Positions 25,149-60,955 of a stretch of DNA of 64,000 nucleotides are shown here, piece by piece. The stretch comes from Naegleria gruberi (taxonomy: Eukaryota): the NCBI GenBank assembly GCA_000004985.1, contig GG738848.1, one strand, 5' to 3'. The notes beneath the pieces were generated by a model, which was not told the origin of the DNA, did no database searches, and worked only from the letters and a program-made list of their open reading frames with translations. Position numbers and translations under genes: made by a program. Every line of letters begins with the position of its first letter. The stretch's first letter is position 1.

Positions 25149-26030
25149 TATTTCAAATAAAAATTGTTTATAGATCTGCAAAGTTCATTCTCTTTTCACA
25201 ATTTTTCTTCAAATGGATAGCAACTTTGTCACTTGCATTATTTTGTAAATATTTTGAAAGTAAGGTGGCAGCATTGTTGAAATTCTCATTGAAATATTCT
25301 TGAGTTGCTTCATTGTAAATATTCCATTGTTCATTCTTCTCCTTTGCATTCAATTCATACATCCATTCATCAGCTTCATTATTAATACTTTCACCCAATT
25401 CGTAAACTTTTCTTGGTGCGTGAATTTGACTTTTATCTGCAATGTTTGGATATGAATAATAATCATCCAACACAAAATTCTTAAAATCAACAAATCTAAC
25501 TTGAAACTTGTTGTCAATTTTCTGGAATAATTCATGAGAAATAACTATTGGAATATCCAACTCTTTTGCAGTTTCAATCATGCCTTGAATATTGTATTGA
25601 ACACTTCCAAAAACACCAAAGTTCATAATCTCCTTTGTTCCCACATTACCACACATACATTCTTGAGTTGTTGCAACAATATGGAAATCCAAATTCAATG
25701 TCGGATTATTCTCATAAACAATATGCTGTGATAGCTTATTTTCCTGTAAAGTTATCAATTTTTTCAATAAGGAATGACAACATTGAAGACCCTTCATTTC
25801 ATGTTTATGTTGATCACCTGAAGCATTGAAGAGAATTGTAACTGTTTCATTTTCAAATTTACCAACTTGTCCATTACTAATCTTTGCTACATAGTTAATA
25901 ACATCAAAAACATCTGTCAAAATGGAAAGACACTCTTTTGGATTGGCATTGTTGAACAAAATATTGACACCGTCCAAAAAGGCACTAACAGCAGTAACTC
26001 TCTTCTTTTCCAAATATAGAGAGAACATGT
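25149..26030. repeat. Inverted segmental duplication or gene-conversion tract shared with 58250..59102 (about 97% nt identity)
   Basis: The antisense ORFs 25350..25535 and 58716..58901 are identical. ORFs 25635..25829 and 58422..58616 differ at 5 of 64 residues. Similarity ends about 20 bp past the stop codons. Confidence 0.7.
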
Positions 26031-27612
26031 TGACGACAGAACTTTGTTGTTTGAGTAATTTTCTTGAAAGAATGCCTGAATGAGAGTTAGTATTAGAATT
26101 TGAAAACGAGGATGAGTCTTTGTGCTTTTCTTGCAAAGGTGTTTCTTCAACTTTCTCAACTTCTCCATCTTCTGAATTGTTGTTGTCCAACTTACTCAAC
26201 AAGTGACCTGGAATAAATTTTCTGTACAATCTAATTCTTTCTACCATACCTATAAAGTGAACTTGCAAGGATTTCACTTCAGAGAGTAAAGACCTAGACA
26301 AACGAAAATTATCCAGTTCCATATTCGAAACCAATTCAAATGAGTCTATTAAATTTTGGAATGGCTTAACAACCATAATAGAAAACACAGTTGTCATAGT
26401 TAATCCAAATATAACTACCACAACAGACCCAACAATTGCACAAACAATAGCAAAAATCATATTACCAATATAATTCCATTTTGGGACGCTGTACACTAAT
26501 ATCCAATCAATACCTTCATCAATACACATTCTTCGAACTGATACATAAGTGTCATCAATTATAACTGTAACATTGGTGTTACAAGCAAGATTTTGAAAAT
26601 CATTATTGAATTGTAAAGCTATTTGATCTCCAAATTTGGTGACACCACCCCCATGGGTTGAGAATGTCTTTCGAGTGGAATCTCTTTCTGTGAACACGTC
26701 TTCTAGAAAACCTGAAGCAATCATGTTTTTTGATTGTGTTTCAAATACAAACCCAACAGTTCCTGTAATATTGACTGTTTGTTTGTAAAGGAACTCTGAT
26801 AAAACATCAAGATTCATAACTATTGTTACAAAATCATTGATTTTACCATAGGATGATATGCTACTGGTACAAGCAATATTCAACTGATTAGAGTTTGTTG
26901 AAGCAACAAATGATGGAGAGAAAATAGTCTTCCCTGGATTCCTTGTAGCTGTCTGAGAAAGGAATGTGTAATCAGTTGAGTTGACCACCCTATCAGGTTT
27001 TGTTTGATGGATACAAACATCGTTATGCTCTGGGTCTATACAATTCCAATAGCTTTGATTCTGTCCCTGATTCACTGCTGTGTACATTACTGATGTTTCG
27101 TCAACCGTAATTCCATACATGTTACCACTAGCATCACCAATCGAGAGCATGTTCAGAAAATCAATGTGAGATTTAATAACTTTCTGCAATCTAAATGTTC
27201 GATCCATTATGAGAGTTTGATTAGTGAAATCAAAATTAGGGTCGAGTTGTGATTTTGTGGATTCTGTTGCCAATACCACATTCTTAATAGAAGTCTCTGT
27301 GTAGGAAATAATGACATCAAATTCTGATTTTCTCACCTTCTCACTCAATGTACCAACCTCTGAACTGAATGCTGTTATCCATATCGAGTCAAACACGACT
27401 GTACATGACAATATCAAGAGAAATATAATAAAGACAAGAATAAATTTGATGGAAGAAAAAAAGCTTAAAACCCTCGAACGACTCTGAATCGTTTTCCTTG
27501 GTGCCTCAGCTGGTGAAGCGTTTTGGTCTGAATTTTTGCCTGGAACCTTTTCCTGTAGTTTTTGCTCACTATTAGGCTTTGAAGAGGTAACAAGTGGTTG
27601 AATACGAGTCAT
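25168..27612 (-). CDS. Receptor-type class III nucleotidyl (adenylyl/guanylyl) cyclase, copy 1: TM1, ~350-aa extracytoplasmic domain, TM2, linker, cyclase domain; 814 aa
   Basis: ATG at 27612. TM segments are FILVFIIFLLILSCTVVF and IFAIVCAIVGSVVVVIFGLTMTTVFSIMVV. The cyclase-homology domain is degenerate in its first motif (VTAVSAFLDG...FHIVATTQECMCGNVGTKEIMNFGVFGSVQYNIQGMIE). It is a paralog of 56712..59083. Confidence 0.7.
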   Translation of the reverse strand: MTRIQPLVTSSKPNSEQKLQEKVPGKNSDQNASPAEAPRKTIQSRSRVLSFFSSIKFILVFIIFLLILSCTVVFDSIWITAFSSEVGTLSEKVRKSEFDVIISYTETSIKNVVLATESTKSQLDPNFDFTNQTLIMDRTFRLQKVIKSHIDFLNMLSIGDASGNMYGITVDETSVMYTAVNQGQNQSYWNCIDPEHNDVCIHQTKPDRVVNSTDYTFLSQTATRNPGKTIFSPSFVASTNSNQLNIACTSSISSYGKINDFVTIVMNLDVLSEFLYKQTVNITGTVGFVFETQSKNMIASGFLEDVFTERDSTRKTFSTHGGGVTKFGDQIALQFNNDFQNLACNTNVTVIIDDTYVSVRRMCIDEGIDWILVYSVPKWNYIGNMIFAIVCAIVGSVVVVIFGLTMTTVFSIMVVKPFQNLIDSFELVSNMELDNFRLSRSLLSEVKSLQVHFIGMVERIRLYRKFIPGHLLSKLDNNNSEDGEVEKVEETPLQEKHKDSSSFSNSNTNSHSGILSRKLLKQQSSVVNMFSLYLEKKRVTAVSAFLDGVNILFNNANPKECLSILTDVFDVINYVAKISNGQVGKFENETVTILFNASGDQHKHEMKGLQCCHSLLKKLITLQENKLSQHIVYENNPTLNLDFHIVATTQECMCGNVGTKEIMNFGVFGSVQYNIQGMIETAKELDIPIVISHELFQKIDNKFQVRFVDFKNFVLDDYYSYPNIADKSQIHAPRKVYELGESINNEADEWMYELNAKEKNEQWNIYNEATQEYFNENFNNAATLLSKYLQNNASDKVAIHLKKNCEKRMNFADL

Positions 27613-42429: not shown

Positions 42430-45400
42430 ATGAATTCTAGAAACATCTACAGCAACAATGCAGGGTCGGTTGTTGGCTCAGATAGTTCTCAAGAATCACA
42501 CAATACTTCCAGCACAAATTCTTCATCATTTCAACACAAAATACGAGTGGAAGTCTTTAACTTTTTCTTTGCCTCACAGAATGTATCTAAAAAGCAAGGA
42601 GGTAAACGATTTTTTGCAATCCTATTATTGTACATACTAATTTATTGGAGTTATATATGGCTTCCTGTATTAAGCCCACAAGATTTTCACTTTGGTGCTT
42701 GGGGTTCATGGATATTTTCAGTATTTAACTATACAACAAGTTTATCAATGGATTTACTTCCGTATGAAGGAGCAATTGCTGTGGCTAGTATAACCATGAC
42801 TTTTATTGCAATAACCGTTTGTATTACTATTATTACTCTGTGGGCTGTAAAGTCTACTTCTCAATACATTAAGAAGATTCAAATGATTCTTCACATCAAT
42901 GCCTACTTAATAATAGTACTCTCTGCTCCTATAATATTTATTTTGACTAGTTTTGTGGATTGTGATTATGGATACAACCCAAGAGAATCATTGATAAATT
43001 TTGTATCTCACCATGCTAATGGTACTTCAATAAGTTCAACAGCAACTCTCACACCCATGCTCAACAGATTTACAAGCATGGAATGTTATTCAACAAATAA
43101 CATCATCTTGATGGCTGTCACCCTCTCATTCATTGCCTTATATTTTGTATTGTGTGTATTGGCCAACTTTTTGGTACCAAATTCACATCCATTAAGCTTT
43201 GCCCCAATGATAACGGAGGGTTACATCTTTCCTATTGGTATGAGTTTGGGAAATTGCATTGGAATTTTGGTACATTTCCTCATACCAGCAGAGTATGCTT
43301 TTGTGAGGTCTATTGTACATTTAGTATATGGCATGTGCATGCTTGTTGTTATTATGAAGAGTTTGCCAATGTATAGAAGATATGAAAACACAATTGTATG
43401 TGGAGTGGTATGCGCAAGATTTGGCACATCAATAGGAAGTATCATTTCCTTTTTTGTAAATGCATCGAACACTGCTGAAATTGGTATTGGAATGTGGGCT
43501 TTAACAACAGGACTGGCTGTTGGATTGGGTTTAGTGGGAGCTGTATCTATGGATATTTATACTCGTTACGTAATTTACTTTATCAAAACTAGATATATCT
43601 TATCAGTAAGATCATCTGATAGATCACTTGAAAAGGAAGCAACAAATATTTATTTCAAATTGGAAGAGGATGGAACCATGTACAAAATGATGTTATATAT
43701 GAGATTTGTTTTAATGAGATATGCTAGAACAAAGACAGAGGAATTAGAAGACAAGTACGACTTGGTTGCATTGATTTCATTCATTAGAGGAATAAGCTCT
43801 CAAAAGTGCTTCAGCGATATTGAACTGTTATCTATGGCTGGAACACTTGTTGGTTATCTGATGGTTGATGAAATGCACTCTTCATATTTTGCTCAAGCTT
43901 TGCTAAAGAGGGCTCTTAAACAGCGACCAGATGTCTATAAAAGATTCCTCATTCATCAAAGATTAAGGGAAGTAGAATTAACAGGTGCTGATGATGTTAA
44001 GGGAAGTAGAACCGTGCTTGAGTTGAAATCTATAATGCTCAATATTCAAAAATATATTACTGAACTCACTTCGTTACATCGTCACTTCTGGAAGGAATTG
44101 ATGCAGGAAATTGTGAACTATGAAAAGGCAGAAAATATAGTTGCAAGATGCTCTGTTATCAACCATGAATTAGATTCCATGTTCGACAACATTTTATCAC
44201 TGTACTATAATGACAAAACTGTACTGAGAACTTATGCCAGCTATTTAGAAAATTTCAAATTCAACAAAGAGCTTGCCAATGAATATTACACAGAAGCATC
44301 AAGTTTGGAAGAAGAAGAATCAAGGATTCCTCTCGCTCAAAAAGGTAATAGAAGGACAAAGAACAAGGTATTCCCAGATGTTCAGGAAAGTGTGGACATA
44401 TCTAAAAAGCTAGGCCCAAAAGGTTTGGCCGTTGGTAGAAGTGTTGCATTTGAAAATTTGGAAACAGCAAGTTACTTGTCTAGCAATATGGATTTTAATG
44501 GGGTTGAGAATGCTAATGCTGATACAAAGAGAGAAATTGGGTTTAGAAATGCCCTTTCTCTTCCTGATTCACACACCATTCACATTATTACTTTCGTTTT
44601 CTTTATTGTATTTGCTTTCATATTATTAGTTGTTGGTTTGGTTATTGGCTTACAATTCTCCAAAGGTGTAACAATGAATGTTGTTAATGTAATTGAAGCT
44701 TGCTCTCCAATATGCGCCTTGAGCAATGTTTTACAATCTGTTCGAGCATTCCAAATGCATTCAATGTTCAACTCTACCCTTGGCTCTTCCAATATTCCAT
44801 TAACTTTAACATCAGAGTCCTACATTGATTTGGCAAATACTAAGATTTTAGTTTCCAAATTCAAAGATATTCTTGTAAATCTGCAACAAAAAGCCTACAA
44901 TGCCAAGTTCGATGGAACTGTTTATTCAAATTATCATGAGGTTTACAGTGAAATTTACATGCCAAACATTGGTGATGATTCAAAATTTTATAACCACACT
45001 ACAAAGATCAATGTGACAGTGACAGATGTAACCAATACCCTTATTAAGATTTCTGATCAAATTATCAATTCAAAGGAAAATGATATAACTAAAACACTGA
45101 ACAGTTATGGATTCATGTTCCTTTACATCAATCATGAATCAATTACAGACATATATGACAAATTTTGTAATATCTTTACTGATTCTGCCAAGACTGAGGC
45201 CCTAGCAATCAACAATATCTTCACGATATATATTTCTGTGTCTCTGGCCACGTTTATATTGTGTGGAGCACTTTACATGATATTCTCAAGAAAGGAATTG
45301 ACAGTTGTTAGGGAGCAAATCAAACTCATTCAACATAATGTTTCCAAGAATGAAATTGGTAAATTATTCCATGATTTGGGTAAAAAAGTTGGTGACGAGG

Positions 45401-47695
45401 TTTCAATTCACATATCTAGAAATTCTCTATTCAAACCAAAGAATGCATTCTTGATCGTTTCTGCCTTTTTAATTATTATTGTTTCAGTGAGTTGTGGAAT
45501 TTACCTTGACCAAACTTTGGGTAATTCAACATACAGTTTTGAATCATACATTACAATGGAGGATGGTTTCGATACAATGACTCACTTGCAGTATGTTTCC
45601 TTTATTGGAACAGAGTATTTTTCACATGTAACAACAAGTATTGTCGGTTCTGAAACGTTACAGCTACTTGATGATGATGAAGTAGAAGCAATGGAGGACA
45701 AATTGTCTTATCTTACAAAGCAATTGAGATATTTTTGGAATCTGTGTATGTATGGTTCTTCAGTTAAGGCATATGAAACTCTTGTGGTTGGTATGTTCCC
45801 AGAGACTGATCAAATGATTAGAGGTTCTGTGAATTGTACTGTTGAAAAGTTGTCTGAAACCTATATTGCTGGAGGTAACAATTCCACAACATGTGAAATG
45901 GGCATTGACTATATGGTACAAGATACCATTCTAATGATTTACAAAATGGTTCAAGATTTGGAAGGTGTTCATCATTCCAAGGGTAAAACATCAATATCCA
46001 CTCTGATTGATTTATTGAATGATTATTTTAAAATCAATTATATGACCAAGACCATTTCCTTAAAGTTAATTGAATTTTCCAACATTTTTGCTGTCAAGTC
46101 ATCAACTCCTCTATTGAACAACATGATTGGTCTGGCAGTGGTTGGATTTGCAAGTAACATAATTTGTGCCATATTAATGTTCCTCTTGTTGAATAATCAT
46201 AGAAGAAGTGCATTTGCAATGAGAGGTTTATTCAACTATCTTTCCATTGATACATTGGAGAATAATGAGAAATTGAGAAACTATGCTCTATACCATACTC
46301 TTGGAGACAATGTACTTTCTAAGCTCAAGACAAAGAAACAAACTCAAAACGGAGAAGATGCTAAAGTCAGATCCATTTTGAATGCTGCTGTTGATGGTGT
46401 TGTACTTTGCTCTAGCTCTGCAAGTATTGATATTTTCAATCCAGCAGCTCAGAGAATGTTTGGTAATCAACAAGAAGATGTTATTGGCAAATACATTTTC
46501 ACTCTATTTGCACCACAGCATCATGGAGAAATTAGAAAATCAATTGAGGGAATGAAACATACTGTATCAGCCAATGATTCAAAGGGAGAAACCTTTGAAA
46601 TTGAATGTATAAGAAAGAATAATACTACATTCCCAGCTACGGTCAATATTTTCGTAACAATTTTCGACAAGAAACCAATCATTACTTGTTTTATCAAGGA
46701 TATTACTTCAGAGAAGAAGGTATGTATTTAATCAAGTAGTTATTTTAATTTACTTTTTACAATAATAGCACAATTCATTACTTGCTGAGGAAAAGAAGAA
46801 TTCAGAGACCTTATTGTTGAATATTTTGCCTGGAGCTGTTGCTTCGAAACTTAAATCTGGAGCATCTCTTATTGCAGAAAGATTCCCAGATGTAACTTGT
46901 TTCTTCTCAGACATGGTTGGATTTACATCACTCTCTTCCAAGTTGACTCCCAATGATCTAGTCCAAATGCTTAATAGTATTGTTATGGGATTTGATGATT
47001 TGATGGATAAATATCACTTGGAAAAGATTAAGACTATTGGTGATGCTTACTTTGCAGCAGGTGGTTTGCATGATTTGAATGCTCAATCTGATCACCCGGA
47101 AAGAGTTTTGAGATTTGCTATTGATACCTTCTCTGTCATTAGAGCCTACAATTCTGAGCATAGAAAGGGAAGAGTAAATGAACAAATCAATATTAGAATT
47201 GGTATAAATACTGGACCAGTTGTAGCAGGTGTTATTGGTCGTAAGAAGTTTGCCTACGATTTATGGGGTGATTCAATTAATACAGCCTCAAGAATGGAAT
47301 CTAACAGCAAGCCTGGAAGAATTCAAATTTCACGTTCGACCTATGAGAGAGTTCACGATTTGGGATTCACCTTTGAAGAAAGAAAGATTGAAGTGAAAGG
47401 AAAAGGTTTAACTCAAACTTACTTACTAGATGCCAAACATCATCAATCTGCTGTACTAACAGAGGAGGAGCTTACTGTAACTATAACAACCAATCAAGAT
47501 CACTATCAAGATGCTGATATTGAGCTAGAAGAAAATGAGGAGAGTTACCTCGAATTGGAAAAAACACATTTAGAAAAACCAAGTTTGCCTGTTGGTCAAT
47601 CAATGACATTTGGAAGTGTCAGTGAAATGAGTGATGAGCCTAATCCAAAAACTATTCCAACGATTCCAACAATCACAACAACAGAATTTGAATAA
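42430..47695 (+). CDS. Large polytopic membrane protein with C-terminal PAS domain and class III nucleotidyl cyclase catalytic domain, about 1738 aa; join(42430..46719,46769..47695)
   Basis: ATG at 42430. There are at least 10 predicted TM helices in several clusters. The PAS-like block is ILNAAVDGVVLCSSSASIDIFNPAAQRMFGNQQEDVIGKYIFTLF. A 49-nt intron runs AAG|GTATGT...AATAATAG. The cyclase motifs are LLLNILPGAVASKL, DVTCFFSDMVGFTSLSS and IKTIGDAYFAAGGL. Confidence 0.8.
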
Positions 47696-51650: not shown

Positions 51651-54600
51651 ATGCCTTCGCCATCTCTTCTTGATAATCCTTTTCAAGCTGTGCAAAGCAC
51701 ATCTGCTTTGTACACAATCAATATTAGATCTTTCTTTCTTCAAAAGAGAGATCGAATTGTTTTCTTGTCAGTTGTGATCATACTACTAACTCTTATACTT
51801 CCGCTATATCATGATATTTATTATGAGAATAGTTTACTTTCAAATACAATATTTTGCACAAATAATTTAAATAATGAGAGGTCAAATCAAATATTTTCGA
51901 CTGATGAATGGTCTGATAGCATGCACTGCAATTCTTATGTTGCAAACCATCCATTCATCAAGAATTGTCAATTCTCTGACTATTTTCCTCAATTTTTAAG
52001 AAGCATTCCAAAGATTTATATAATTTTTGCTGAATACGCGATCAAATTTATAATTTACATGTTTCTGTTGATGATATATTGGAGATTTCATAATGTAATG
52101 AACAAGCTCTTCAAGTTTTTATTACTTAATGAAACAATAGAAATGGAAAATGAGGCAAGGCAGCAAAGAACCTCAGGGGAATCACATCATGTGTACCTGC
52201 TGTGTTCTGAAGTTTCTAGATGTTTGTGTTCATCAATTTGGATAATGAGTGTACAAATGGTGTTGGGAAGAAATGCTCCAGCTTTTTTATGGATTTTAGT
52301 ATATAGTTGTCTTGGTTCGGTTGCTCTAGAAATGAGTAAGAAGCCAAGTATCGATTCCAAACAACAAACACATGTGACGCCTCCACCTGAACGTTTGCCC
52401 ATGTACAGAAAAATATTTAACTTTTTAAGGAAACTAATAATAGGCACACATGCGACAACATACGTTACTATTACAGTAATGGTGATATGTGAGCTCTTTG
52501 TAATGATTTACTATTTGAAATATTCAGCTTCATTTTGCTCATGCGTTGTAGTTTCTATTCTTATTGTACAAGTAATGACTATTGAATTGATAGATTTTAT
52601 GAGAAATCACTCTATTGAGTTTGTACAACAACGAGAGATGCAAAGTATGAAAAAAGTAGCCAATTTATATAAGAATCTATACATGACAGCACCTGACACA
52701 TTTCTCTCATGTGTATGCGATAGTGATGATGTATTAGTAAGACCATCCGATACAAAGGTGGAATCAGCATACTTGTTTCTTCAGTCATTCAAGATTGTCC
52801 AATACAACAACACAGCAATAGATACACTTTCATGTGCTTCCTCACTCTCCATTAATCCTGATAATTATTATAATCATTCAGATCATGAAGTGACTCTTGG
52901 TGATGTGATTATTAATCCTTACAAAGAATCTGATGAGGTAATGAGAACAGCAGCACTTGGAGGAAATTTACTCAGTGTCAGCGATTTACAAAACTCTGCT
53001 GTGTTGAAGCTTGGTGAAGTGTTGCAGGATGTTATTCAATCACCTTTTGACCAAACATCTAAGCAAACACCAACTCACGAGAGAATCCTCCCCTTGTTTG
53101 TTAAAGGAAAAAATCAAACAATACTAACATGCTCTTTGAGTATATCAAAGATTTTGCTCTATGATATCGACTCTGCAGGTGAGGGAATGGTCTTTTTTAA
53201 TATCATTCTTCACGACATTACTCAAAAATACAAACTATTGGATGAAATCAATGTAGAAAAGGAGAAAGCTATTGAGGCCAACAAAGCAAAGAGTCAATTT
53301 TTAGCACAAATGTCGCACGAATTGCGAACTCCTCTTCATGGTATTATTGGCCTTACTGATGTGTTGCTATCAAAATGTAAAGAAGAAACAGAAAATGAGA
53401 AAAACTTGGACACGTTTGATAAGGCTGTAAATCTCAATAATATTTGCAAGGATAGCGCCACTATTGCATTTGTGGAAAGTGAAAAATCTCACTCACCAGT
53501 ATTGGAACAACAAACGAACATTATTCAGACAATAAGGTATAGTGGTAACATTTTACTAGGCCTTATTAATGACTTATTGGATATTTGCAAGATTGAATCC
53601 TCGAAAATCAAGTTGGAAAATAAGAAGTTCAATTTGAGACGTGCTATTGACCAAATTCATTGTGGAATGTTTCAATTACAAGCTAGAGAAAAATCATTAG
53701 AGTTCAATTTACAGCTCGGTGAGAATGTTCCAACTTTTATAGTTGGCGACGAGTATCGTCTTGTTCAAATCCTTATCAACCTGGTATACAATGCCATTAA
53801 ATTCACCGATATGGGATCAGTTTCTCTCATTATTGAGTCAAAACCACCATCTGAAGACAACGTTTATGAGCTTACATTTAAGGTAACTGATACTGGAATC
53901 GGAATTTCGCAACATGATTTGAAGAGATTGTTTCAACCCTTCTCTCAAATATTGAGCACTTCACACAAGCAGACCAAGATTAATGAAGGTACTGGCTTGG
54001 GTCTTTACATTTGCAAACAACTTGTCGAAATGATGAGAGGTACCTTGTGTGTTGATAGTGAGGAAGGCGTGGGAAGCACTTTCTGGTTTACCATTAAATT
54101 CCATGGTGAGTTTATTCCTGGCTTTGAAGAAACAACCCGCTCCAAGATACTTTCTAAGAATGTATCGTCTAAATCACTGCTATCCCTAGAAAATTGCAAG
54201 AAAAATGAGCTAACAACAGTTAGAACACCAACTATTGAGGATTTTGAATCAAGTTTACCAAAATTGAAAATTCTAATAGTTGAGGATAATGCAATCAATA
54301 GAATTGTTTTGATTAATATGTTGAAGAAAATTGGTTGTACAAATATTGCAGTGGCTCAAGATGGTTTGGAGGGTGTTCAACAATTTGAAGAATTTAAAAA
54401 GACCAATCAACTTTTTGATATAATTTTTGTTGACATTTTCATGCCTAGATTGGATGGTTATGGAACTGTAAGAAGAATACTGGAACTAGAATCCAACGAT
54501 CCTTCCGATCATCACTCGATTCTAGTAGCCCTGACAGCAAATGGGTTTGAGGAAACCAGAAATTATTGTCTAGAGCATGGATTTGATGTGTTTATGAGCA

Positions 54601-54680
54601 AGCCATTCTCAATTACTGATTTAGAGCAGTGTGTAACAAATTGCATGACCAGAATCCATCCAAGTAGTATAATTCCGTAA
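51651..54680 (+). CDS. Hybrid sensor histidine kinase: N-terminal multi-TM domain, HisKA, HATPase_c, C-terminal receiver domain; 1009 aa, no intron detected
   Basis: ATG at 51651. The H-box is FLAQMSHELRTPLHGIIGL, the N-box LINLVYNAIKFT, G1 DTGIGIS and G2 GTGLGLYICKQLVEMM. The receiver has KILIVEDNAINRIVL, the phospho-acceptor Asp in DIIFVDIFMPRLDG and MSKPF. Confidence 0.85.
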   Translation: MPSPSLLDNPFQAVQSTSALYTINIRSFFLQKRDRIVFLSVVIILLTLILPLYHDIYYENSLLSNTIFCTNNLNNERSNQIFSTDEWSDSMHCNSYVANHPFIKNCQFSDYFPQFLRSIPKIYIIFAEYAIKFIIYMFLLMIYWRFHNVMNKLFKFLLLNETIEMENEARQQRTSGESHHVYLLCSEVSRCLCSSIWIMSVQMVLGRNAPAFLWILVYSCLGSVALEMSKKPSIDSKQQTHVTPPPERLPMYRKIFNFLRKLIIGTHATTYVTITVMVICELFVMIYYLKYSASFCSCVVVSILIVQVMTIELIDFMRNHSIEFVQQREMQSMKKVANLYKNLYMTAPDTFLSCVCDSDDVLVRPSDTKVESAYLFLQSFKIVQYNNTAIDTLSCASSLSINPDNYYNHSDHEVTLGDVIINPYKESDEVMRTAALGGNLLSVSDLQNSAVLKLGEVLQDVIQSPFDQTSKQTPTHERILPLFVKGKNQTILTCSLSISKILLYDIDSAGEGMVFFNIILHDITQKYKLLDEINVEKEKAIEANKAKSQFLAQMSHELRTPLHGIIGLTDVLLSKCKEETENEKNLDTFDKAVNLNNICKDSATIAFVESEKSHSPVLEQQTNIIQTIRYSGNILLGLINDLLDICKIESSKIKLENKKFNLRRAIDQIHCGMFQLQAREKSLEFNLQLGENVPTFIVGDEYRLVQILINLVYNAIKFTDMGSVSLIIESKPPSEDNVYELTFKVTDTGIGISQHDLKRLFQPFSQILSTSHKQTKINEGTGLGLYICKQLVEMMRGTLCVDSEEGVGSTFWFTIKFHGEFIPGFEETTRSKILSKNVSSKSLLSLENCKKNELTTVRTPTIEDFESSLPKLKILIVEDNAINRIVLINMLKKIGCTNIAVAQDGLEGVQQFEEFKKTNQLFDIIFVDIFMPRLDGYGTVRRILELESNDPSDHHSILVALTANGFEETRNYCLEHGFDVFMSKPFSITDLEQCVTNCMTRIHPSSIIP

Positions 54681-54903
54681 ATTTATTTTTACAAAATTTC
54701 AGTCGGAAGTGATATTGAAGTTAAAATAATTCAGGCTGAATTACATCTCTTGACATTTAAAAACTCCAATTAGACACTTCAATGAAAGATGAAGTTTTTT
54801 GTCGGGCGCTATGTCGTTCGCTTAGTCGCAAACATGCCGCCAGTTGACTAGAACCGATCATTAAGAACTGCACCAATGTTAAATAATACAACATATCAAA
54901 AAA

Positions 54904-56541
54904 ATGGAAGATATTCTTGTAACTTGTTTCGTGTACATCCCTCTTGGATGTATTCTTTTACTTTCAATCTTATTGGTGGAAAGATACGTTCAATATAAGA
55001 AACTTTGCAAAAAATATGAACACTTACCAGGTGTTACTCAATTTTTACCACCTCACATTGCTCAATTCCTTCCTAAATGGATGCTCCCAGATGGAATCAT
55101 TGATAATCCATTCGAAATCTTTACTCCAGACACAATCCTTCGAATCATTAAGGAAAATAATAGTGATTACTTTAAAATCATATTTGGTATTGCCAATTTA
55201 TCATTTGTTATTGGTGACTGTCCTGAATTAGCCAAAGAATTTGCAACCAAGGGTGCAAAAGTATTCAGAAAAACAGAATTTATGGACAGATCGAGTAAAG
55301 AATTATTTTTTGGAACCAACGTATTTGCTGAGCCAGACCACCATACTTGGTTAAAGCATAGACAATTAATTGATCAAAGTTTTTCACCATCCAATTTGAA
55401 ACTTGTTGCAGATGTTACTAATGAAGTGGTTGAGAAGGATATGATTCCTGCCATTAATTCTCAACTTGAAAGAAGAGATGTAATGGTTGACATGGCGAGA
55501 TTGACAATGGATGTTATTGGAAAGGCAGCTTTTGGATATAGTCTTAATTCATTCCATTCAAAGCCAGGTGAAGTAACCTTGGAACAACAAGGTAATATTT
55601 TTATGAGCTATCTTGATTATCTGAGAGTTATTCCAACAAAATTTTTGAGAAGTAACCTCAAAATTGGTGCTGTTGGTAAATTGCACTTTGCTGTTAAATC
55701 ATTCACTGATGTCATTAGTAAGATTATTGAAAAGAGAGAACGAAGTGATGATAAAGATGAAGCTGCCGATATTTTGTCTCTCCTATTGAAGGAGAGAAAG
55801 AATAATAGAGATCAATCGAGTGGTGGCATTTTGACTGATGAAGAACTAGTGTCAAATTCATTTGTGTTATTAGTGGCCGGCCATGATACTACGTCTAGAA
55901 CACTTGGTTATGCCACTTACTTACTCTCCAAGAATCCTCATATTCAACAAGAATTGCACGATGCAGTTGACAAAGTCGTAAAGGAAACTGGAAAAGATAC
56001 ATTTGATTTCTCAGACTATGAAAGTGGAAGATTGGACTATGTGAAAGCAGTATTTAATGAAGTGTTGAGATTAATCCCTGTTGCTTTTGGTTCTTTCAGA
56101 GATTTAACCAAAAATGTTGAATATAACGGAACAGTATTTCCAAAAGGAGCCATTTTTGGCATTTCATTTGTTCACACTCTCGTCAATGAAAAGTATTGGG
56201 ACGAACCATTATCTTTCAAACCAATGAGATTTATCAAGGATGGAAAGTTTATTGTTCCAAACAGTAATCCATTTGTTTTCACGCCATTTGGTGTCGGTGG
56301 AAGAATTTGTGCAGTAAGTTATTGAAATCAATCATCATGATTATTAATATTCTCTCTATTATCTATATATCAATAGGGTCGTTATTTCTCAACAGTTGAA
56401 GGATTATGTGCATTGGCCAAGTTAGCTAGAACCTACTCTTTCAAACTCTCAGATCCAAATTATGTTGTTCAACACGAAATGCACATTACATTGAAGCCAA
56501 AAGAGACTCTCTATGTTGATTTCATTCCTCGTCAACTCTAA
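54904..56541 (+). CDS. Cytochrome P450 monooxygenase, 524 aa; join(54904..56313,56377..56541)
   Basis: ATG at 54904 with an N-terminal membrane anchor. The ETLR-like block is EVLRLIP. A 63-nt intron (GTAAGT...CAATAG) lies inside the heme loop, and the join FGVGGRICA|GRYFSTVEGLCALAKL restores the canonical FxxGxRxCxG motif. Confidence 0.85.
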
Positions 56542-56711
56542 TACCTATATTCTTCCGTTGCGCCTAATAATAAAACAAACTACCTTACTGCATCTTTGTT
56601 CTATCTCTTGAACTAATTCCGTGAAGTCTTCACATCCTATTAAGGTCAAATTACCATCCTCTTTGCAGGCAATAAATCCGAGAAAAACGCATTGCGAATA
56701 ACTCAAAGAAA

Positions 56712-59083
56712 ATGTCTCGTGTTCAACCAATCACTGAGAATGGTGCAGTAGAAACAACCACACCTTATACACCAAGGAAGATTATTGAAAGCAAATCCAA
56801 AGTTCTCAACTTTTTAACCTCTATCAAATTTACTCTGACACTAATAATATTTCTGGTGATATTGTCATGTACAATAGTGTTCGATTCTATTTGGATGTCT
56901 GTCTTTGCAGGCGAAGTGAGTAAATTAAGTGAGAATGTGAGAAAATCAGAGTTTAATTTAATAATATCCAACACTGAGAGATCCATTAAGAAAGTGGTGT
57001 TGGCTTCGGAATTGGCAAAATCTCAACTTTATTCTGGTTTTGACTTCTCAAATGAAACCCAGTCTATGTCTCATACTTTTAGAATGCACAAAGCTATCAA
57101 ATCACATTTGAATGATCTACATATGCTCCTAGTTGGTGATTCCAATGGAAATATGTATGGAATAGAGCTGGAAGAAACCTCAGTAATGTTCACCATTGTA
57201 AACCAAGAAAAGGATCAAAGTTATTGGAATTGTACAGATCCAGATAAAAATGACGAATGTATTCACGGTGATTTTCCAGAGAGAGTTGAACCCTATTCGG
57301 ATTATACTTTCATTCCTCAGATAGCATCCAATAATCAAGGAAGGACGCTTTTCTCACCACCATTTATTGATTCACATTCTAATCAATTGAGTATTGCTTG
57401 CACTAGTATTTTAGCCATTCCTCCCTCATCCAAAACCATTAACTTTGTAACCATGCTTTGAATCTTGGGGAGTTTTTTGAGTTTCTTCATGAACAAGCAG
57501 ATAATATTCTAGAGGCTATTGCATTTGTCTTTGATACAAAATCCAGACTCTTGATTGTCTCTAGTAGTAAACAGAAGTTCTCTTCTGAGAGTTCCTCCAC
57601 ACTGAAAACATTCTCTGATGTTGGGGGAAGAATAGAAATAATTGGAAATCAAGTGGCAGCTCAGTTCAATAATGACTTGCAAAATTTTCCATGCAACACT
57701 AACTTGACTTTTGTGTTTGATCTTGTTACCTATGTATCTGTAGGAAGAATGTGTAATGAAGAAGGAATTGATTGGATATTTGTATATGATGTTCCTCAAT
57801 GGAATTACATGGGTTATACTACTCACCTTATTGCTTCGGGTAATGGGTCAATTGGGCTGTTGATAACCATGTTTATTCTGGCGTTTATATTTTCCAGTAT
57901 AGTTGTTAAGCCATTCAAAACGTTGATAGCATCGTTTGAATTGGTTTCGAATATGCAACTGGATAATTTTCAACTTTCGCCATCACTCATTTCTGAAGTG
58001 AAATCCTTGCAAGTTCACTTTATAGGTATGGTGGAAAGAATTAGATTGTACAGAAAGTTTATTCCAAGTCACTTGTTGAGTAAGTTGGACAACAACAATT
58101 CAGAAGATGATGTTGAGAATGTTGAAACATCTTTACAAGAAAAACCACAGGATTCACCTTTCTCAAATTCTCATTCAAGCAGTCTTTCAAGAAAACATCC
58201 CAAACAACAACCTTCAGATAATGTATTCTCGCTTTATTTGGAGAATAAGAAAGTTACAGTAGTGGCAGTGTTTTTGGACGGTGTCAATAACTTGTTCAAC
58301 AATGCCAATCCAAAAGAGTGTCTTTCCATTTTGACAGATGTTTTTGATGTAATTAACTATGTAGCAAAGATTAGTAATGGACAAGTTGGTAAATTTGAAA
58401 ATGAAACAGTTACAATTCTCTTCAATGCTTCAGGTGATCAACATAAACATGAAATGAAGGGTCTTCAATGCTGTCACTCCTTATTGAAGAAATTGATAAC
58501 TTTACAGGAAAATAAGCTATCACAGCATATTGTTTATGAGAATAATCCGACATTGAATTTAGATTTCCATATTGTTGCAACAACTCAAGAATGTATGTGT
58601 GGTAATGTGGGAACAAAGGAGATTATGAACTTTGGTGTTTTTGGAAGTGTTCAATACAATATTCAAGGCATGATTGAAACTACAAAAGAGTTGGATATTC
58701 CAATAGTTATTTCTCATGAATTATTCCAGAAAATTGACAACAAATTTCAAGTTAGATTTGTTGATTTTAAGAATTTTGTGTTGGATGATTATTATTCATA
58801 TCCAAACATTGCAGATAAAAGTCAAATTCACACACCAAGAAAAGTTTACGAATTGGGTGAAAGTATTAACAATGAAGCTGATGAATGGATGTATGAATTG
58901 AATGCAAAGGAGAAGAATGAACAATGGAATATTTACAATGAAGCATCACAAGAATATTTCAATGAGAATTTCAATAATGCTGCCACCTTACTTTCAACAT
59001 ATTTACAAAATAATGCAAGTGACAAAGTTGCTATCCATTTGAAGAAAAATTGTGAAAAGAGAATGACCATTGCAGATCTATAA
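56712..59083 (+). pseudogene. Receptor-type class III nucleotidyl cyclase, copy 2: reading frame broken by an apparent 5-nt insertion (ctttg, 57456..57460) creating TGA at 57459; otherwise collinear with copy 1. Pseudogene or assembly error
   Basis: The two track ORFs 56712..57461 and 57458..59083 align to contiguous parts of copy 1 (…FVTIVMNLDVLSEF in copy 1, versus …FVTML* then NLGEFFEF in copy 2). The C-terminal ~290 aa, including the cyclase domain, are about 97% identical to copy 1. Confidence 0.5.
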
Positions 59084-59102
59084 ACAATTTTTATAAACTC
59101 TA
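58250..59102. repeat. Inverted partner of the 25149..26030 duplication or gene-conversion tract
   Basis: See 25149..26030. The 3' boundary lies about 20 bp after the stop codon. Confidence 0.7.
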
Positions 59103-59165
59103 ATTGCGGATTGGTATTTAAGACAGAGGACTGATTGTAAAAGGATAATTTCGAATAAGAAAAAA

Positions 59166-59585
59166 ATGAAAAGACAATTTCAAGATGTCTCCTCGGCTAA
59201 TACTGTTGATACCACACTGAAAAAAGTGAAAGAAAATCCACATGATGATGCGTATTCACTTCTTGATCAATTATCGGAAGAATGCATTGAATCAGTGTTG
59301 GTGTTTTTAGGAGTTTTGAAGAAGGTATTCCATGACAAGATTAAAATGGAAAATGATGAAGACAATGATGATGATGATGATTATACTGGGTTAATTGTAA
59401 AGGGAATTGATAGAAATCAATTTGCGAAACATGCAGTGGTTAACTGGCAACAATTGAGGAATATTAGTTTAGTTTCAAAGAACTTATTCTCTAAATGTGC
59501 TCCTTTCATGTTTGAGCACGAGACTAGGCAAGTTACAAACCAAGTATTTGATAACATTTTTTCAAACCTATTGAAGCTCAGTTGA
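59166..59585 (+). CDS. Small F-box-like protein with acidic tract, 139 aa
   Basis: ATG at 59166. It has LLDQLSEECIESVLVFLGV and DEDNDDDDDY. Its stop TGA at 59583..59585 lies 2 nt before the next gene's ATG. Confidence 0.4.
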   Translation: MKRQFQDVSSANTVDTTLKKVKENPHDDAYSLLDQLSEECIESVLVFLGVLKKVFHDKIKMENDEDNDDDDDYTGLIVKGIDRNQFAKHAVVNWQQLRNISLVSKNLFSKCAPFMFEHETRQVTNQVFDNIFSNLLKLS

Positions 59586-59587
59586 AA

Positions 59588-60955
59588 ATGCTCGAATGTA
59601 AAATGACTTCAGACAAGTTGAAATTGAAAAAGATTAAACAATGGGAACAGTGGTTTGCTGGTGAGATTGGCCATCTTCACAAGGTACAATCCGTTGAATC
59701 ACAAAATGAATTGAAGGAAAAGGTTTTGAATAGAGCAAGCTATTCATTTAAGAATAGTAATCAGCAAATGAATGGAAGATGGGAAATTTCTGCATACTGC
59801 CACTTGATGGAAGATTTACATTTACATCATGCATTTGAATGTGATTATGATAGTTGCAGTTTTACTATTGGTTTGTTTGGAGATCTTGATCAAGTCAACC
59901 AGTCGATTAAGGAAGATTTAATGAAATATTTAGATCTTCCTAATAATACAAGTTTTAAGAGTGAAGATAGTGATGAAGATTTCTATGACGAAGAAGAAGA
60001 AGAAGACAATAGAAAGTACAATCCAGTTGAACTAATGACCTCTCAATATGTTAACAGCTCAGTTAACACCTGTGTTCTCAATTATATCAGAGAAAAGCTT
60101 GGAATTTCTTCTCAAGTCACTAATTTAGAGCTTGTTGCTGCTTTGGTTTATATCTTTCCCTATGATATTTCTGTAAAATCATCAGATATTGTCTACGAAG
60201 ATGTTCAATTTAACGACGAGGAAGTTGAGATTGATTTTACACTCAACCATACTCCAAAGAAAAGTAAGGAAAGGACATATAATGAAGAAACAGATAAGGA
60301 TATATGTTGCAAACCTTGTGAAGGTCGTTCTATTTTTGATATTGGAAATGATATGTTGCTTCAAATCCTTTCCTTTTTAAGATTTAGATATGTTGCAACA
60401 CTCTCAGAAACAAGCAAGACATTTTACAGTGCTTATTTAAGAAGTGGGTGGTCATTCCCAATTAGAATGGGTAAGGTTATCGATTCACTCTCTCCAATTC
60501 TAAACAAGCAAGGTATTGAGAGATCTCTTTCAGTTGTACGTGATGCCAGATACTATGCATTTAACACTCACCCTTATTTTGTTCAATATTTGGAAGTAAG
60601 ATATGAAAATATCGACTACCTATCCTCTGTTAAAACAGTAATGAAAGTTGGAAACCGTACTTATAGCTTTGAAGGATTTGATGATGAAGGATCAAGTCCT
60701 TATTTTACAATGGATGACATTACAAATGGGAAAGTTAAGAAATATTATCCTAAGGACCATGATTTTTACTGTTCAAATGGCGATCTAGTTGTGAGAGTGG
60801 AAGCCATTGCTACCCTAACCAACATGTTTGGATATATGGATGGTAAGGATTTAGTAGAGAAATTCTTGGAACTTCTTCCTTTTGAAAATTGGAGATATGT
60901 AAGTGAAATTAGAATTGGAGATGAGAAAAAGAAACCAAAGCCAAAGAGAAAATAA
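59588..60955 (+). CDS. F-box-like domain protein, about 455 aa, with acidic tract and C-terminal KKKPKPKRK
   Basis: ATG at 59588 (MLECKMTS). The F-box-like block is IGNDMLLQILSFLRFRYVATLSETSKTFYSAYL, and an acidic run DSDEDFYDEEEEED is present. It could be one gene with the preceding ORF if there is a frameshift. Confidence 0.5.
   Translation: MLECKMTSDKLKLKKIKQWEQWFAGEIGHLHKVQSVESQNELKEKVLNRASYSFKNSNQQMNGRWEISAYCHLMEDLHLHHAFECDYDSCSFTIGLFGDLDQVNQSIKEDLMKYLDLPNNTSFKSEDSDEDFYDEEEEEDNRKYNPVELMTSQYVNSSVNTCVLNYIREKLGISSQVTNLELVAALVYIFPYDISVKSSDIVYEDVQFNDEEVEIDFTLNHTPKKSKERTYNEETDKDICCKPCEGRSIFDIGNDMLLQILSFLRFRYVATLSETSKTFYSAYLRSGWSFPIRMGKVIDSLSPILNKQGIERSLSVVRDARYYAFNTHPYFVQYLEVRYENIDYLSSVKTVMKVGNRTYSFEGFDDEGSSPYFTMDDITNGKVKKYYPKDHDFYCSNGDLVVRVEAIATLTNMFGYMDGKDLVEKFLELLPFENWRYVSEIRIGDEKKKPKPKRK

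What the first reader, a model, noticed from the sequence alone, without database searches (positions are those of the whole stretch)
57440..57470. Cyclase copy 2 is split by a 5-nt insertion or duplication (ctttg) that creates an in-frame TGA
Relative to copy 1 (…FVTIVMNLDVLSEF…), copy 2 reads ACC ATG CTT TGA ATC TTG GGG. Removing ctttg gives ACC ATG AAT CTT GGG and restores TMNLGEFFEF in frame. Everything downstream (540 codons) is open and highly conserved. This is either a very recent inactivation, an expressed truncated N-terminal fragment plus an internally initiated cyclase, or a sequencing error. The local sequence cttTGaatCTTGg looks like a small slipped duplication.
Basis: seen in the sequence. 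Interest (0 to 1): 0.5.

Follow-up and report, generated by a model that had tools for sequence, protein, structure and literature searches.

The report
Frameshifted duplicate receptor gene in Naegleria
One of two neighbouring copies of a membrane sensor gene with a cyclase-like domain in the amoeba Naegleria gruberi is broken by a single missing base, and it is most likely an ordinary young pseudogene, because a close wild relative has deleted most of the same copy.

Summary
The stop codon and the frame change are real. ORF 56712..57461 (249 aa) ends at TGA 57459-61, and a 541-codon open frame follows in the -1 frame. Together they match an intact 814-aa paralogue at 25168..27612 (minus strand).

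The "5-nt insertion" reading is not supported. Copy 2 has 8 nt (57453-57460) where copy 1 has 9. Adding one base keeps a spacing that is gap-free in all seven homologues; removing CTTTG would make a 2-residue gap.

The window is the Naegleria gruberi reference genome (Sanger assembly). Its annotation lists the halves as NAEGRDRAFT_62636 and NAEGRDRAFT_62637.

The protein is a TM–dCache–TM receptor with a degenerate class III cyclase-like domain, and the break lies inside the dCache sensor.

There is no slippery site, no downstream RNA structure and no plausible intron.

Contigs from a 97-99% identical environmental strain show copy 2 reduced by a 1,920-nt deletion. They also show a 2-nt deletion in copy 1, and a 7-nt frameshifting difference in the neighbouring F-box gene. 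Real indels are therefore common at this locus.

Best reading: a genuine recent 1-nt deletion, giving a duplicate-gene pseudogene (about 0.72). A consensus error remains possible (about 0.18). Low interest.

The parts
56712..57461 (+). 5' half of copy 2: 249-codon ORF ending at the premature TGA (57459-61). It covers the cytoplasmic N-terminus, TM1 (about residues 38-62) and the first half of the dCache ectodomain. It is annotated publicly as NAEGRDRAFT_62636 (XP_002681935.1, UniProt D2V1N2).
57453..57460 (+). The lesion: 8 nt (ATGCTTTG) where copy 1 (26823..26815, minus strand) and its strain orthologue have 9 nt (ATAGTTATG). One base is missing. The exact position within these 8 nt cannot be determined; TTT at 57457-59 is one candidate.
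57458..59083 (+). 3' half of copy 2 in the -1 frame (541 codons, no ATG before 57749). It covers the second half of dCache, TM2 (about repaired residues 379-400), a long helix, a low-complexity linker, the cyclase-like domain and C-terminal helices. The public model NAEGRDRAFT_62637 (XP_002681936.1, D2V1N3, 444 aa) starts at ATG 57749.
25168..27612 (-). Copy 1: the intact 814-aa paralogue, in inverted orientation about 30 kb away. It is NAEGRDRAFT_62622 (XP_002682077.1, D2V1L7).
58271..59093 (+). Main gene-conversion tract with copy 1 (about 25980..25158): 17 mismatches in 823 nt, dS 0.07. Flanking coding sequence has dS of about 1. Identity falls to background about 10 nt after the stop codon.
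57992..58107 (+). Short second conversion tract with copy 1 (3 mismatches in 116 nt), covering the conserved juxtamembrane helix SEVKSLQVHFIGMVERIRLYRKFIP.
56748..58667 (+). The 1,920 nt that are absent from the orthologous locus of a 97-99% identical environmental strain (contig L002). The junction has GCA microhomology. What remains there is MSLVQPITENGA-stop plus an out-of-frame 137-codon 3' remnant.

Best explanation
Copy 2 is a young, unprocessed (duplicate-gene) pseudogene in Naegleria gruberi NEG-M. It is a tandem-region paralogue of a TM1–dCache–TM2–helix–cyclase-like receptor, and it has lost one base within 57453-57460.

Translation from the normal ATG (56712) therefore stops at TGA 57459-61 after 249 residues. 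The product would be TM1 plus half of the extracellular dCache fold, which cannot fold or signal on its own.

The downstream 541 codons are still open for two reasons. The lesion is recent relative to the duplication (dS of about 1). The last third is also kept nearly identical to the intact copy 1 by gene conversion.

Shown: the lesion, its size, the domain it cuts, the intact paralogue, the conversion tracts, and independent destruction of the same copy in a close relative.

Inferred: that the missing base is in the DNA of the strain and not only in the assembly, and that no functional product is made.
For: Sequence and alignments:
- The frame change and stop are in the sequence.
- There is a one-base deficit against copy 1 and L001.
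- The spacing is invariant in seven homologues.

Source and assembly quality:
- The source is the Sanger-sequenced N. gruberi reference. The N fragment is exactly XP_002681935.1, the C fragment from ATG 57749 is exactly XP_002681936.1, and copy 1 is XP_002682077.1. Sequencing technology is given in PMC9928731, Table 1.
- The site is not a long homopolymer. It has a TTT run only.
- The other apparent frame breaks that were traced through are ordinary GTAAGT...AG introns of 63-116 nt (the RCC1 pair also starts with GTAAGT). This gives no sign of a generally indel-ridden consensus.

Evolutionary signal:
- dN/dS between copies is 0.22 upstream and 0.33 downstream, with dS of 1.0-1.3. Both halves were therefore under selection for most of their history, and only one lesion is present.
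- Copy 2 shows a mild excess of lineage-specific changes. It departs at 7 of 77 otherwise invariant columns, against 3 of 73 for copy 1.

Related strain:
- In a 97-99% identical strain from an ENA metagenome, the syntenic locus (P450 – copy 2 – F-box gene) lacks 1,920 nt of copy 2, with a 3-nt microhomology junction and an immediate stop.
- The same pair of contigs shows a 2-nt (TG) deletion in the copy 1 orthologue.
- It also shows a 7-nt frameshifting difference in the adjacent F-box gene of NEG-M. A 7-nt gap is not a base-calling error, so real frameshifting indels occur at this locus.

Structure:
- The break maps to strand 260-267 (copy 1 numbering) inside a confidently modelled dCache domain.
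Against: - No reads, traces or transcripts could be examined, so a consensus error in the draft assembly cannot be excluded.
- The relative-rate excess in copy 2 is weak (p=0.14 against the outgroup consensus; 0.014 for one outgroup only).
- The wild strain's deletion removes the site. It therefore shows that the copy is dispensable, not that the 1-nt lesion exists.
- The frameshift might be one allele of a heterozygous locus.
- The L001 and L002 evidence rests on one metagenome assembly.
Confidence: 0.72

Rival explanations
1. Assembly or base-calling error. The real gene is an intact ORF of about 790 codons, and one base was dropped from the consensus of the draft Sanger assembly. Under this reading, the two public gene models 62636 and 62637 are artefacts of that error.
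For: - There is exactly one lesion in an otherwise clean ORF whose two halves both show purifying selection.
- A TTT run lies in the 8-nt segment.
- No independent sequence of this site exists in any collection searched.
Against: - Sanger consensus at several-fold coverage rarely drops a base in a 3-nt run.
- None of the other apparent frame breaks in the 64 kb that were traced through needs an error to explain it.
- The one other true frameshift found in the window is a 7-nt difference, which cannot be a base-calling slip.
- The same copy is demonstrably dispensable in a close relative.
Confidence: 0.18
2. A functional two-gene arrangement. The 249-aa N fragment and a C fragment initiated at ATG 57749 (the public model 62637) would both be made, the latter as a sensor-less membrane-anchored cyclase-like protein.
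For: - Both pieces are annotated as proteins.
- A product from ATG 57749 would keep TM2 and everything cytoplasmic.
Against: - The cut lies in the middle of a dCache fold whose long N-terminal helix packs against both modules, so neither half is a folding unit.
- 22 ATG triplets precede 57749 on the mRNA, and no separate promoter is evident.
- No family member with this split was found. Short relatives in the library are gene-call fragments of full-length genes: for example, P0140 is part of the 855-aa N. fowleri FDP41_005001.
- The relative's locus is deleted, not split.
Confidence: 0.05
3. Recoding or splicing restores the frame. Candidates are a programmed -1 ribosomal frameshift, or a tiny intron (GT at 57447 to AG at 57472 or 57481; 26 or 35 nt).
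For: - The required shift is -1.
- GT...AG pairs of length 2 mod 3 exist across the site.
Against: - There is no X XXY YYZ slippery heptamer at or before the stop.
- The 99 nt downstream fold worse than shuffled controls (z=+1.72).
- Introns verified in this window are 63-116 nt and start with GTAAGT. The candidate starts with GTAACC. It would also remove 9-12 residues that align base-for-base with coding sequence of copy 1.
Confidence: 0.02
4. One reading: a 5-nt insertion or slipped duplication (CTTTG) in a copy that was already 2 codons shorter than copy 1.
For: Removing CTTTG restores the frame.
Against: - It needs two events: a 6-nt in-frame loss plus a 5-nt gain. The alternative needs only one 1-nt loss.
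- It breaks a spacing that is invariant across all eight aligned sequences.
- CTTTG aligns with GTTATG of copy 1, so it is homologous sequence rather than new sequence.
- No tandem repeat is present.
Confidence: 0.03

Closest known systems
Duplicate-gene (unprocessed) pseudogenes in expanded protist cyclase families, e.g. Trichomonas vaginalis transmembrane adenylyl cyclases (PMC2914791, title and abstract seen)
   Same: - It is a large lineage-specific family of membrane cyclase-type genes. 144 cluster representatives score E<1e-30 against the profile, with members in N. gruberi, N. fowleri and N. lovaniensis.
- Recent duplicates decay by small lesions.
   Different: - Here the pair is also being homogenised by gene conversion over the 3' third.
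- The evidence for decay comes from two strains rather than from a family-wide census.
Bacterial dCache_1 ligand-binding domains of chemoreceptors and sensor kinases (PctA/B/C, PctD, Tlp3, TlpQ, Mlp24)
   Same: - The predicted ectodomain (residues about 55-378 of copy 1, pLDDT mostly 80-90) superposes on these structures. Foldseek gives E of 1e-7 to 1e-6 and TM-scores of 0.5-0.68 normalised to the target.
- It sits between two TM helices, as they do.
   Different: - No Pfam dCache match at sequence level.
- The host is a eukaryote.
- The output module is a cyclase-like domain, not an MCP or kinase module.
Class III nucleotidyl cyclases (Pfam PF00211), e.g. P. aeruginosa CyaB (PDB 3r5g) and Synechocystis Cya2 (2w01)
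   Same: - The family profile matches CyaB at E=9e-12 and Cya2 at 7e-10.
- The fold also matches.
- The distant relative P0234 passes the Pfam threshold.
- UniProt names the N. fowleri and N. lovaniensis relatives 'Guanylate cyclase domain-containing protein'.
   Different: - Copies 1 and 2 themselves do not reach any Pfam score.
- In the CyaB alignment the first metal-binding Asp is Phe, the second is Glu and the transition-state Arg is Met. Only the Asn is kept. Catalysis is therefore doubtful.
Receptor-type adenylyl cyclases of other protists (Dictyostelium ACG, trypanosome ESAG4/GRESAG4 family); comparison from general knowledge, not tested here
   Same: An extracellular sensor domain, membrane anchor and intracellular cyclase-type domain in a unicellular eukaryote.
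   Different: - Different sensor folds: CHASE in Dictyostelium ACG, and periplasmic-binding-protein-like in the trypanosome family.
- Those enzymes are catalytically competent.

Membership tests
Unprocessed duplicate-gene pseudogene | Full-length collinear homology to an intact paralogue, with no retrotransposition marks | tested here: met
   tblastn of both halves against copy 1. The DNA alignment is collinear from the ATG to about 10 nt past the stop.
Unprocessed duplicate-gene pseudogene | A disabling lesion in the coding sequence | tested here: met
   A one-base deficit gives TGA at 57459-61 after codon 249.
Unprocessed duplicate-gene pseudogene | The lesion is present in the organism's DNA, not only in the assembly | not testable with these tools
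   No reads or second assembly of NEG-M are available. Exact look-ups and database searches returned only the reference annotation.
Unprocessed duplicate-gene pseudogene | Relaxed selective constraint on the disabled copy | tested here: inconclusive
   - Pairwise dN/dS is 0.22-0.33, which indicates purifying selection over most of the history.
- There is a small excess of changes on the copy 2 lineage: 24 against 14, p=0.14, and 7 against 3 departures at invariant columns.
Unprocessed duplicate-gene pseudogene | Dispensability or loss of the same copy in close relatives | tested here: met
   The L002 contig, which is 97.5-98.9% identical in the flanks, lacks 1,920 nt of copy 2 and has an immediate stop.
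Class III nucleotidyl cyclase (PF00211) | Sequence match to the family model above its gathering score | tested here: not met
   No Pfam hit for copy 1 or either half of copy 2, even at E<=10. Only the distant relative P0234 passes, at 27 bits against a cut-off of 21.9.
Class III nucleotidyl cyclase (PF00211) | Cyclase-homology fold | tested here: met
   The family profile matches CyaB 3r5g at E=9e-12. Foldseek matches the AF2 model to 3r5g at E about 1e-6, although model confidence in this domain is only moderate.
Class III nucleotidyl cyclase (PF00211) | Catalytic residues: two metal-binding Asp, plus transition-state Asn and Arg | tested here: not met
   In the alignment to CyaB, Asp1 is Phe (C/Y/H/K in the paralogues), Asp2 is Glu, Arg is Met or Leu, and Asn is conserved.
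dCache_1 sensor domain | Two stacked PAS-like modules on a long N-terminal helix, lying between two TM helices | tested here: met
   AF2 secondary structure and pLDDT of 80-90 over residues 90-380. The top Foldseek hits are dCache ligand-binding domains.
Programmed -1 ribosomal frameshift site | Slippery heptamer X XXY YYZ at the shift site | tested here: not met
   The sequence AAC TTT GTA ACC ATG CTT TGA contains none.
Programmed -1 ribosomal frameshift site | Stable downstream stimulatory RNA structure | tested here: not met
   57462-57560 folds at -13.8 kcal/mol, against a shuffle mean of -18.8 (z=+1.72).
Spliceosomal intron of this genome | GTAAGT 5' site, AG 3' site, length as in verified introns of the window | tested here: not met
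   - Verified introns: 5430-5503 (74 nt), 56314-56376 (63 nt) and 50699-50814 (116 nt). All start with GTAAGT.
- Across the lesion only GTAACC...AG of 26 or 35 nt fits the phase, and it lies within sequence homologous to coding sequence of copy 1.

The most novel reading that the evidence does not exclude
The split might be functional. N. gruberi NEG-M would then make a stand-alone membrane-anchored half-sensor (62636) and a sensor-less TM2–cyclase-like protein from ATG 57749 (62637). That would be a receptor caught in the act of fission. A milder version is that NEG-M, an axenically adapted laboratory strain, is losing environmental-sensing genes, with the 1-nt lesion here and the 7-nt lesion in the neighbouring F-box gene as examples.
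Probability: 0.04. Interest if true: 0.4.

Novelty: new member of a known kind. Interest (0 to 1): 0.15.

Why it matters
The finding matters mainly for annotation.

- Two 'predicted proteins' of the N. gruberi reference (NAEGRDRAFT_62636 and NAEGRDRAFT_62637; UniProt D2V1N2 and D2V1N3) are halves of one disrupted gene.
- The neighbouring pair NAEGRDRAFT_62638 and NAEGRDRAFT_45926 is likewise one gene, split by a 7-nt difference.
- The locus is also a small, clean example of birth-and-death evolution plus gene conversion in Naegleria's large family of cyclase-type receptors.
- The 'cyclase' domain of this subfamily lacks key catalytic residues.

None of this is surprising to a specialist.

Tried and rejected
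Searches that found nothing:
- Exact-protein look-ups of the N fragment, the C fragment, copy 1, the histidine kinase and the MBL-fold neighbour, made to find independent assemblies.
- A homology search with a repaired full-length copy 2. It found no orthologue closer than 65%, which was the copy 1 strain orthologue.
- A JGI metagenome scan with copy 2 peptides. 102 pattern matches were returned, none of them a relative.
- Literature searches for the locus tags, UniProt ids and the metagenome project.

Uninformative:
- An INO80 search meant to place the species. The best hit was 52% identical and no Naegleria sequence was listed. The organism was identified later, when the representative library returned the N fragment itself.

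Hypotheses tested and rejected:
- 'The assembly is riddled with 1-nt deletions.' Seven ORF pairs with the same +2 frame change were found. Those checked (INO80, Stk19, RCC1 and the P450 end) have GTAAGT 5' splice sites; for INO80, Stk19 and the P450 end the full intron was traced and joins the frames.
- 'Tiny introns of about 23-38 nt exist here.' The Stk19 case resolves to a normal 116-nt intron, and the Pfam coordinates agree.
- 'P0140 shows a natural protein starting at the same point.' It is a gene-call fragment of an 855-aa N. fowleri protein.
- TGA read as a sense codon. The original frame hits TAG 14 codons later.
Full report
**What is in the sequence**

At 57450-57470 the plus strand reads ACC ATG CTT TGA ATC TTG GGG. 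An ORF starting at ATG 56712 ends at this TGA (57459-61) after 249 codons. A second frame, offset by -1 (equivalently +2), is open from 57443 and runs 541 codons to a stop at 59081-83.

Both pieces are homologous to a single uninterrupted 814-codon ORF on the minus strand at 25168..27612 ("copy 1"). The N piece is 53% identical (tblastn E=1e-87) and the C piece 77% identical (E=0).

**Size of the lesion**

A DNA alignment of the two copies, and of a strain orthologue of copy 1 (L001, see below), gives:
- copy 1 and L001: ACA ATA GTT ATG AAT CTT
- copy 2: ACC AT- GCT TTG AAT CTT

Between the conserved Thr codon and the conserved AAT CTT, copy 1 has nine bases and copy 2 has eight.

A protein alignment was made of copy 1, copy 2, L001's product, four N. 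gruberi paralogues and one N. lovaniensis paralogue. The 15-residue block from the aromatic residue to "FL" (FVTIVMNLDVLSEFL in copy 1) has the same length in every sequence. Copy 2 fits without a gap if one base is added (for example FVTMLLNLGEFFEFL).

CTTTG is homologous to GTTATG of copy 1. It is not a copy of the downstream CTTGG, which is neither identical nor adjacent. The lesion is therefore best described as a single-base deletion somewhere in 57453-57460. The exact base cannot be identified; a TTT run at 57457-59 is one candidate.

**Where the window comes from and how it is annotated**

- Named homologues were all Naegleria.
- A profile search of the 50%-clustered library returned a 249-aa protein identical to the N fragment.
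- Exact look-ups showed that the N fragment is N. gruberi XP_002681935.1 / EFC49191.1 / D2V1N2 (NAEGRDRAFT_62636).
- Copy 1 is XP_002682077.1 / D2V1L7 (NAEGRDRAFT_62622).
- The C frame read from its first ATG (57749) is XP_002681936.1 / D2V1N3 (NAEGRDRAFT_62637, 444 aa).
- All three lie on a 712,659-bp scaffold.

The window is therefore the N. gruberi reference genome, and the public annotation lists the two halves as separate "predicted proteins". According to Table 1 of PMC9928731, that genome (about 40 Mb, 35% GC) was sequenced by Sanger technology. No paper in the searchable library mentions these locus tags.

**What the gene encodes**

Neither copy matches any Pfam family, even at E<=10. 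Copy 1 alone hits class III adenylyl cyclases in the PDB only weakly (2w01, E=4e-4). A six-sequence family profile hits them clearly: CyaB 3r5g at E=9e-12 and Cya2 2w01 at E=7e-10.

An AlphaFold2 model of copy 1 has a mean pLDDT of 63.6, but 80-90 over residues 90-380. It shows the following, in order:
- a disordered N-terminus
- a long helix beginning in TM1
- a two-module alpha/beta ectodomain
- TM2 continuing into a long helix
- a disordered low-complexity linker (466-537)
- an alpha/beta domain
- C-terminal helices

Foldseek against the PDB ranks dCache ligand-binding domains of bacterial chemoreceptors and sensor kinases first (PctD, Tlp3, TlpQ, PctA-C, Mlp24, mmHK1S). E-values are 1e-7 to 1e-6 and TM-scores normalised to the target are 0.5-0.68. 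CyaB matches the C-terminal domain.

In the profile-CyaB alignment the first metal-binding Asp corresponds to Phe in copies 1 and 2 (Cys, Tyr, His or Lys in the paralogues). The second Asp is Glu, the transition-state Arg is Met or Leu, and only the Asn is conserved. "Cyclase" is therefore right at the level of fold and ancestry, but catalytic competence is doubtful. This is an inference from the alignment, not a test.

The family is large: 144 cluster representatives score E<1e-30 against the profile. Relatives in N. fowleri and N. lovaniensis are named "Guanylate cyclase domain-containing protein". One distant member passes the Pfam PF00211 threshold.

**Where the break falls**

The lesion aligns with residues 264-266 of copy 1. 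These lie in a beta-strand (260-267) at the junction of the membrane-distal and membrane-proximal modules of the dCache domain.

The 249-aa product would be TM1, the long helix and the distal module only. The downstream frame has no ATG until 57749, which is 22 ATG triplets into the mRNA. A product from there would carry about 30 ectodomain residues, TM2 and the cytoplasmic part. Neither piece is a folding unit of a dCache domain, which argues against a functional two-protein arrangement.

**Could the cell read through it?**

- There is no X XXY YYZ slippery heptamer before the stop.
- The 99 nt after it are less structured than shuffled controls (-13.8 against -18.8 kcal/mol, z=+1.72).
- If TGA were read as sense, the original frame would hit TAG 14 codons later.
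- GT...AG pairs of the right phase exist (57447 to 57472 or 57481; 26 or 35 nt). The three introns verified in this window are 63, 74 and 116 nt and all begin with GTAAGT: 56314-56376 in the P450 gene, 5430-5503 in INO80 and 50699-50814 in Stk19. The candidate begins with GTAACC and lies in sequence that aligns base-for-base with coding sequence of copy 1.

Recoding and splicing are therefore not supported.

**Is the assembly generally unreliable here?**

Seven adjacent ORF pairs in the window show the same +2 frame change, which at first suggested systematic 1-nt deletions. Pfam showed that several are single genes: INO80 (DBINO then SNF2), Stk19 and an RCC1-repeat gene. In each of these the upstream frame stops inside a canonical GTAAGT 5' splice site. 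For INO80, Stk19 and the P450 gene a normal intron was traced that joins the frames. They are ordinary introns, and the window gives no sign of a consensus full of indel errors.

**Evolutionary signal**

The two copies are 57-77% identical at the DNA level over most of their length. Two tracts are exceptions:
- 57992-58107, with 3 mismatches in 116 nt
- 58271-59093, with 17 mismatches in 823 nt

Identity falls to background within about 10 nt of the stop codon. Synonymous divergence is about 1.0-1.3 outside the tracts and 0.07 inside the main tract. This is the signature of gene conversion between the inverted paralogues. The near-identity of the last 270 codons to copy 1 is therefore not evidence that copy 2 is itself under selection.

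Outside the tracts, dN/dS is 0.22 upstream of the lesion and 0.33 downstream. Both halves were therefore constrained for most of the time since duplication, and the lesion is recent on that scale.

With five paralogues as outgroups, copy 2 has somewhat more lineage-specific replacements than copy 1. The counts are 24 against 14 with the outgroup consensus (p=0.14) and 44 against 23 with one outgroup (p=0.014). Copy 2 departs at 7 of 77 otherwise invariant columns, against 3 of 73 for copy 1. This is at most a mild relaxation of constraint.

**Evidence from a close relative**

Two contigs of one ENA metagenome assembly (ERZ929261) come from a strain 97-99% identical to the window.

L001 (3.5 kb) is syntenic with the copy 1 locus at 97.3% identity. 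Its copy 1 orthologue carries a 2-nt deletion in a (TG)3 run inside the cyclase-like domain, which truncates the product at 654 aa.

L002 (3.7 kb) is syntenic with the P450 – copy 2 – next-gene locus. Positions 147-2166 match window 54722-56747 at 98.9%, and positions 2164-3747 match window 58668-60257 at 97.5%. The 1,920 nt between them (window 56748-58667) are absent. The junction (…AATGGTGCA|TGATTGAAACT…) has a 3-nt GCA microhomology. It leaves MSLVQPITENGA-stop, followed by an out-of-frame 137-codon remnant whose variants are of the copy 1 type. A de Bruijn assembly at k=127 cannot create such a join from a 3-nt repeat, so it most likely reflects real reads. This last point is an inference.

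In the only relative available, then, copy 2 is a deletion remnant. This shows the copy is dispensable, but it says nothing directly about the 1-nt site, which is deleted there.

The same contig shows that the next gene is a single ORF of at least 366 codons in the relative. The window lacks 7 nt at 59555/59556 (GATAAC-A[CCAGTGA]TTTTTT). This changes the frame and explains why the reference has two abutting models, NAEGRDRAFT_62638 (139 aa) and NAEGRDRAFT_45926 (455 aa, F-box). A 7-nt difference is not a base-calling slip, so genuine frameshifting indels do separate these strains at this locus.

**Verdict**

The most likely explanation (about 0.72) is a genuine, recent single-base deletion that has turned copy 2 into an unprocessed pseudogene. 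Its 3' third is still being overwritten by gene conversion from the intact copy 1.

A dropped base in the draft Sanger consensus remains possible (about 0.18), because no reads could be inspected. A heterozygous null allele is a variant of the main explanation that also needs reads to settle.

The finding is an ordinary instance of a well-known process. Its practical value is for annotation: four public gene models are really two disrupted genes. It is also a tidy example of birth-and-death plus gene conversion in Naegleria's expanded cyclase-type receptor family, comparable to the Trichomonas transmembrane cyclase family with its pseudogenes (PMC2914791).

**Dead ends**

- Exact look-ups for independent assemblies of five window proteins found nothing.
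- A search with a repaired copy 2 found no orthologue.
- A JGI metagenome scan found no relative.
- An INO80 search did not help to place the organism.
- Literature searches for the identifiers and the metagenome project were empty.

Noticed in passing
window 59555/59556 (genes 59166..59585 and 59588..60955): Relative to the 97.5% identical contig L002, the window lacks 7 nt (GATAAC-A[CCAGTGA]TTTTTT). In L002 the gene is one ORF of at least 366 codons. In the reference it is split into two abutting public models, NAEGRDRAFT_62638 (139 aa) and the F-box protein NAEGRDRAFT_45926 (455 aa), whose stop and ATG are 2 nt apart. This is a second frameshifted gene only 2.1 kb from the first.
   Followed up: partly
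window 58271..59093 and 57992..58107, paired with about 25980..25158 and 26283..26168 (minus strand): Gene conversion between the two inverted paralogues, which lie 30 kb apart. The tracts show 97-100% nucleotide identity (dS 0.07), inside genes that are otherwise 57-77% identical (dS of about 1). The 3' boundary lies about 10 nt after the stop codon. In the strain contigs, tract variants are shared in a mosaic pattern between the two loci.
   Followed up: partly
L001 3278/3279 (equivalent to window 25654-25655, copy 1): In the environmental strain the copy 1 orthologue has a 2-nt deletion in a (TG)3 run (GTATGTGTGG to GTATGTGG). This frameshifts the cyclase-like domain and gives a 654-aa product. 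Both paralogues therefore look disrupted in that strain.
   Followed up: partly
L002 2164-2166 (junction of window 56747 and 58668): A 1,920-nt deletion of copy 2 in the environmental strain, with GCA microhomology at the junction. The 137-codon remnant has the copy 1-type C-terminus (…RMNFADL). A 13-nt indel separates it from the window around the stop (59079-59091).
   Followed up: yes
copy 1 residues about 538-745 (window about 26000..25380, minus strand) and the equivalent part of copy 2: The cyclase-homology domain of this subfamily lacks canonical catalytic residues. Metal-binding Asp1 is Phe, Asp2 is Glu and the transition-state Arg is Met; only the Asn is kept. This is also true of the N. 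gruberi and N. lovaniensis paralogues aligned, which suggests a non-catalytic or unorthodox domain.
   Followed up: partly
window 5430-5503, 50699-50814, 56314-56376, and 1735-1795 (minus strand): Several introns (74, 116 and 63 nt, each starting with GTAAGT) happen to be open in the downstream exon's frame. The flanking ORFs therefore overlap and mimic 1-nt frameshifts. All seven such ORF pairs in the window show the same +2 frame change. This is partly because a phase-2 intron puts TAA of G|GTAAGT in frame.
   Followed up: yes
window 42430..46731 and 51651..54680: Other signalling genes are clustered nearby. One is a 1,433-aa protein with TmcB-type TPR repeats and a C-terminal PAS domain. 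The other is a 1,009-aa multi-TM hybrid histidine kinase (HisKA, HATPase_c, receiver).
   Followed up: no
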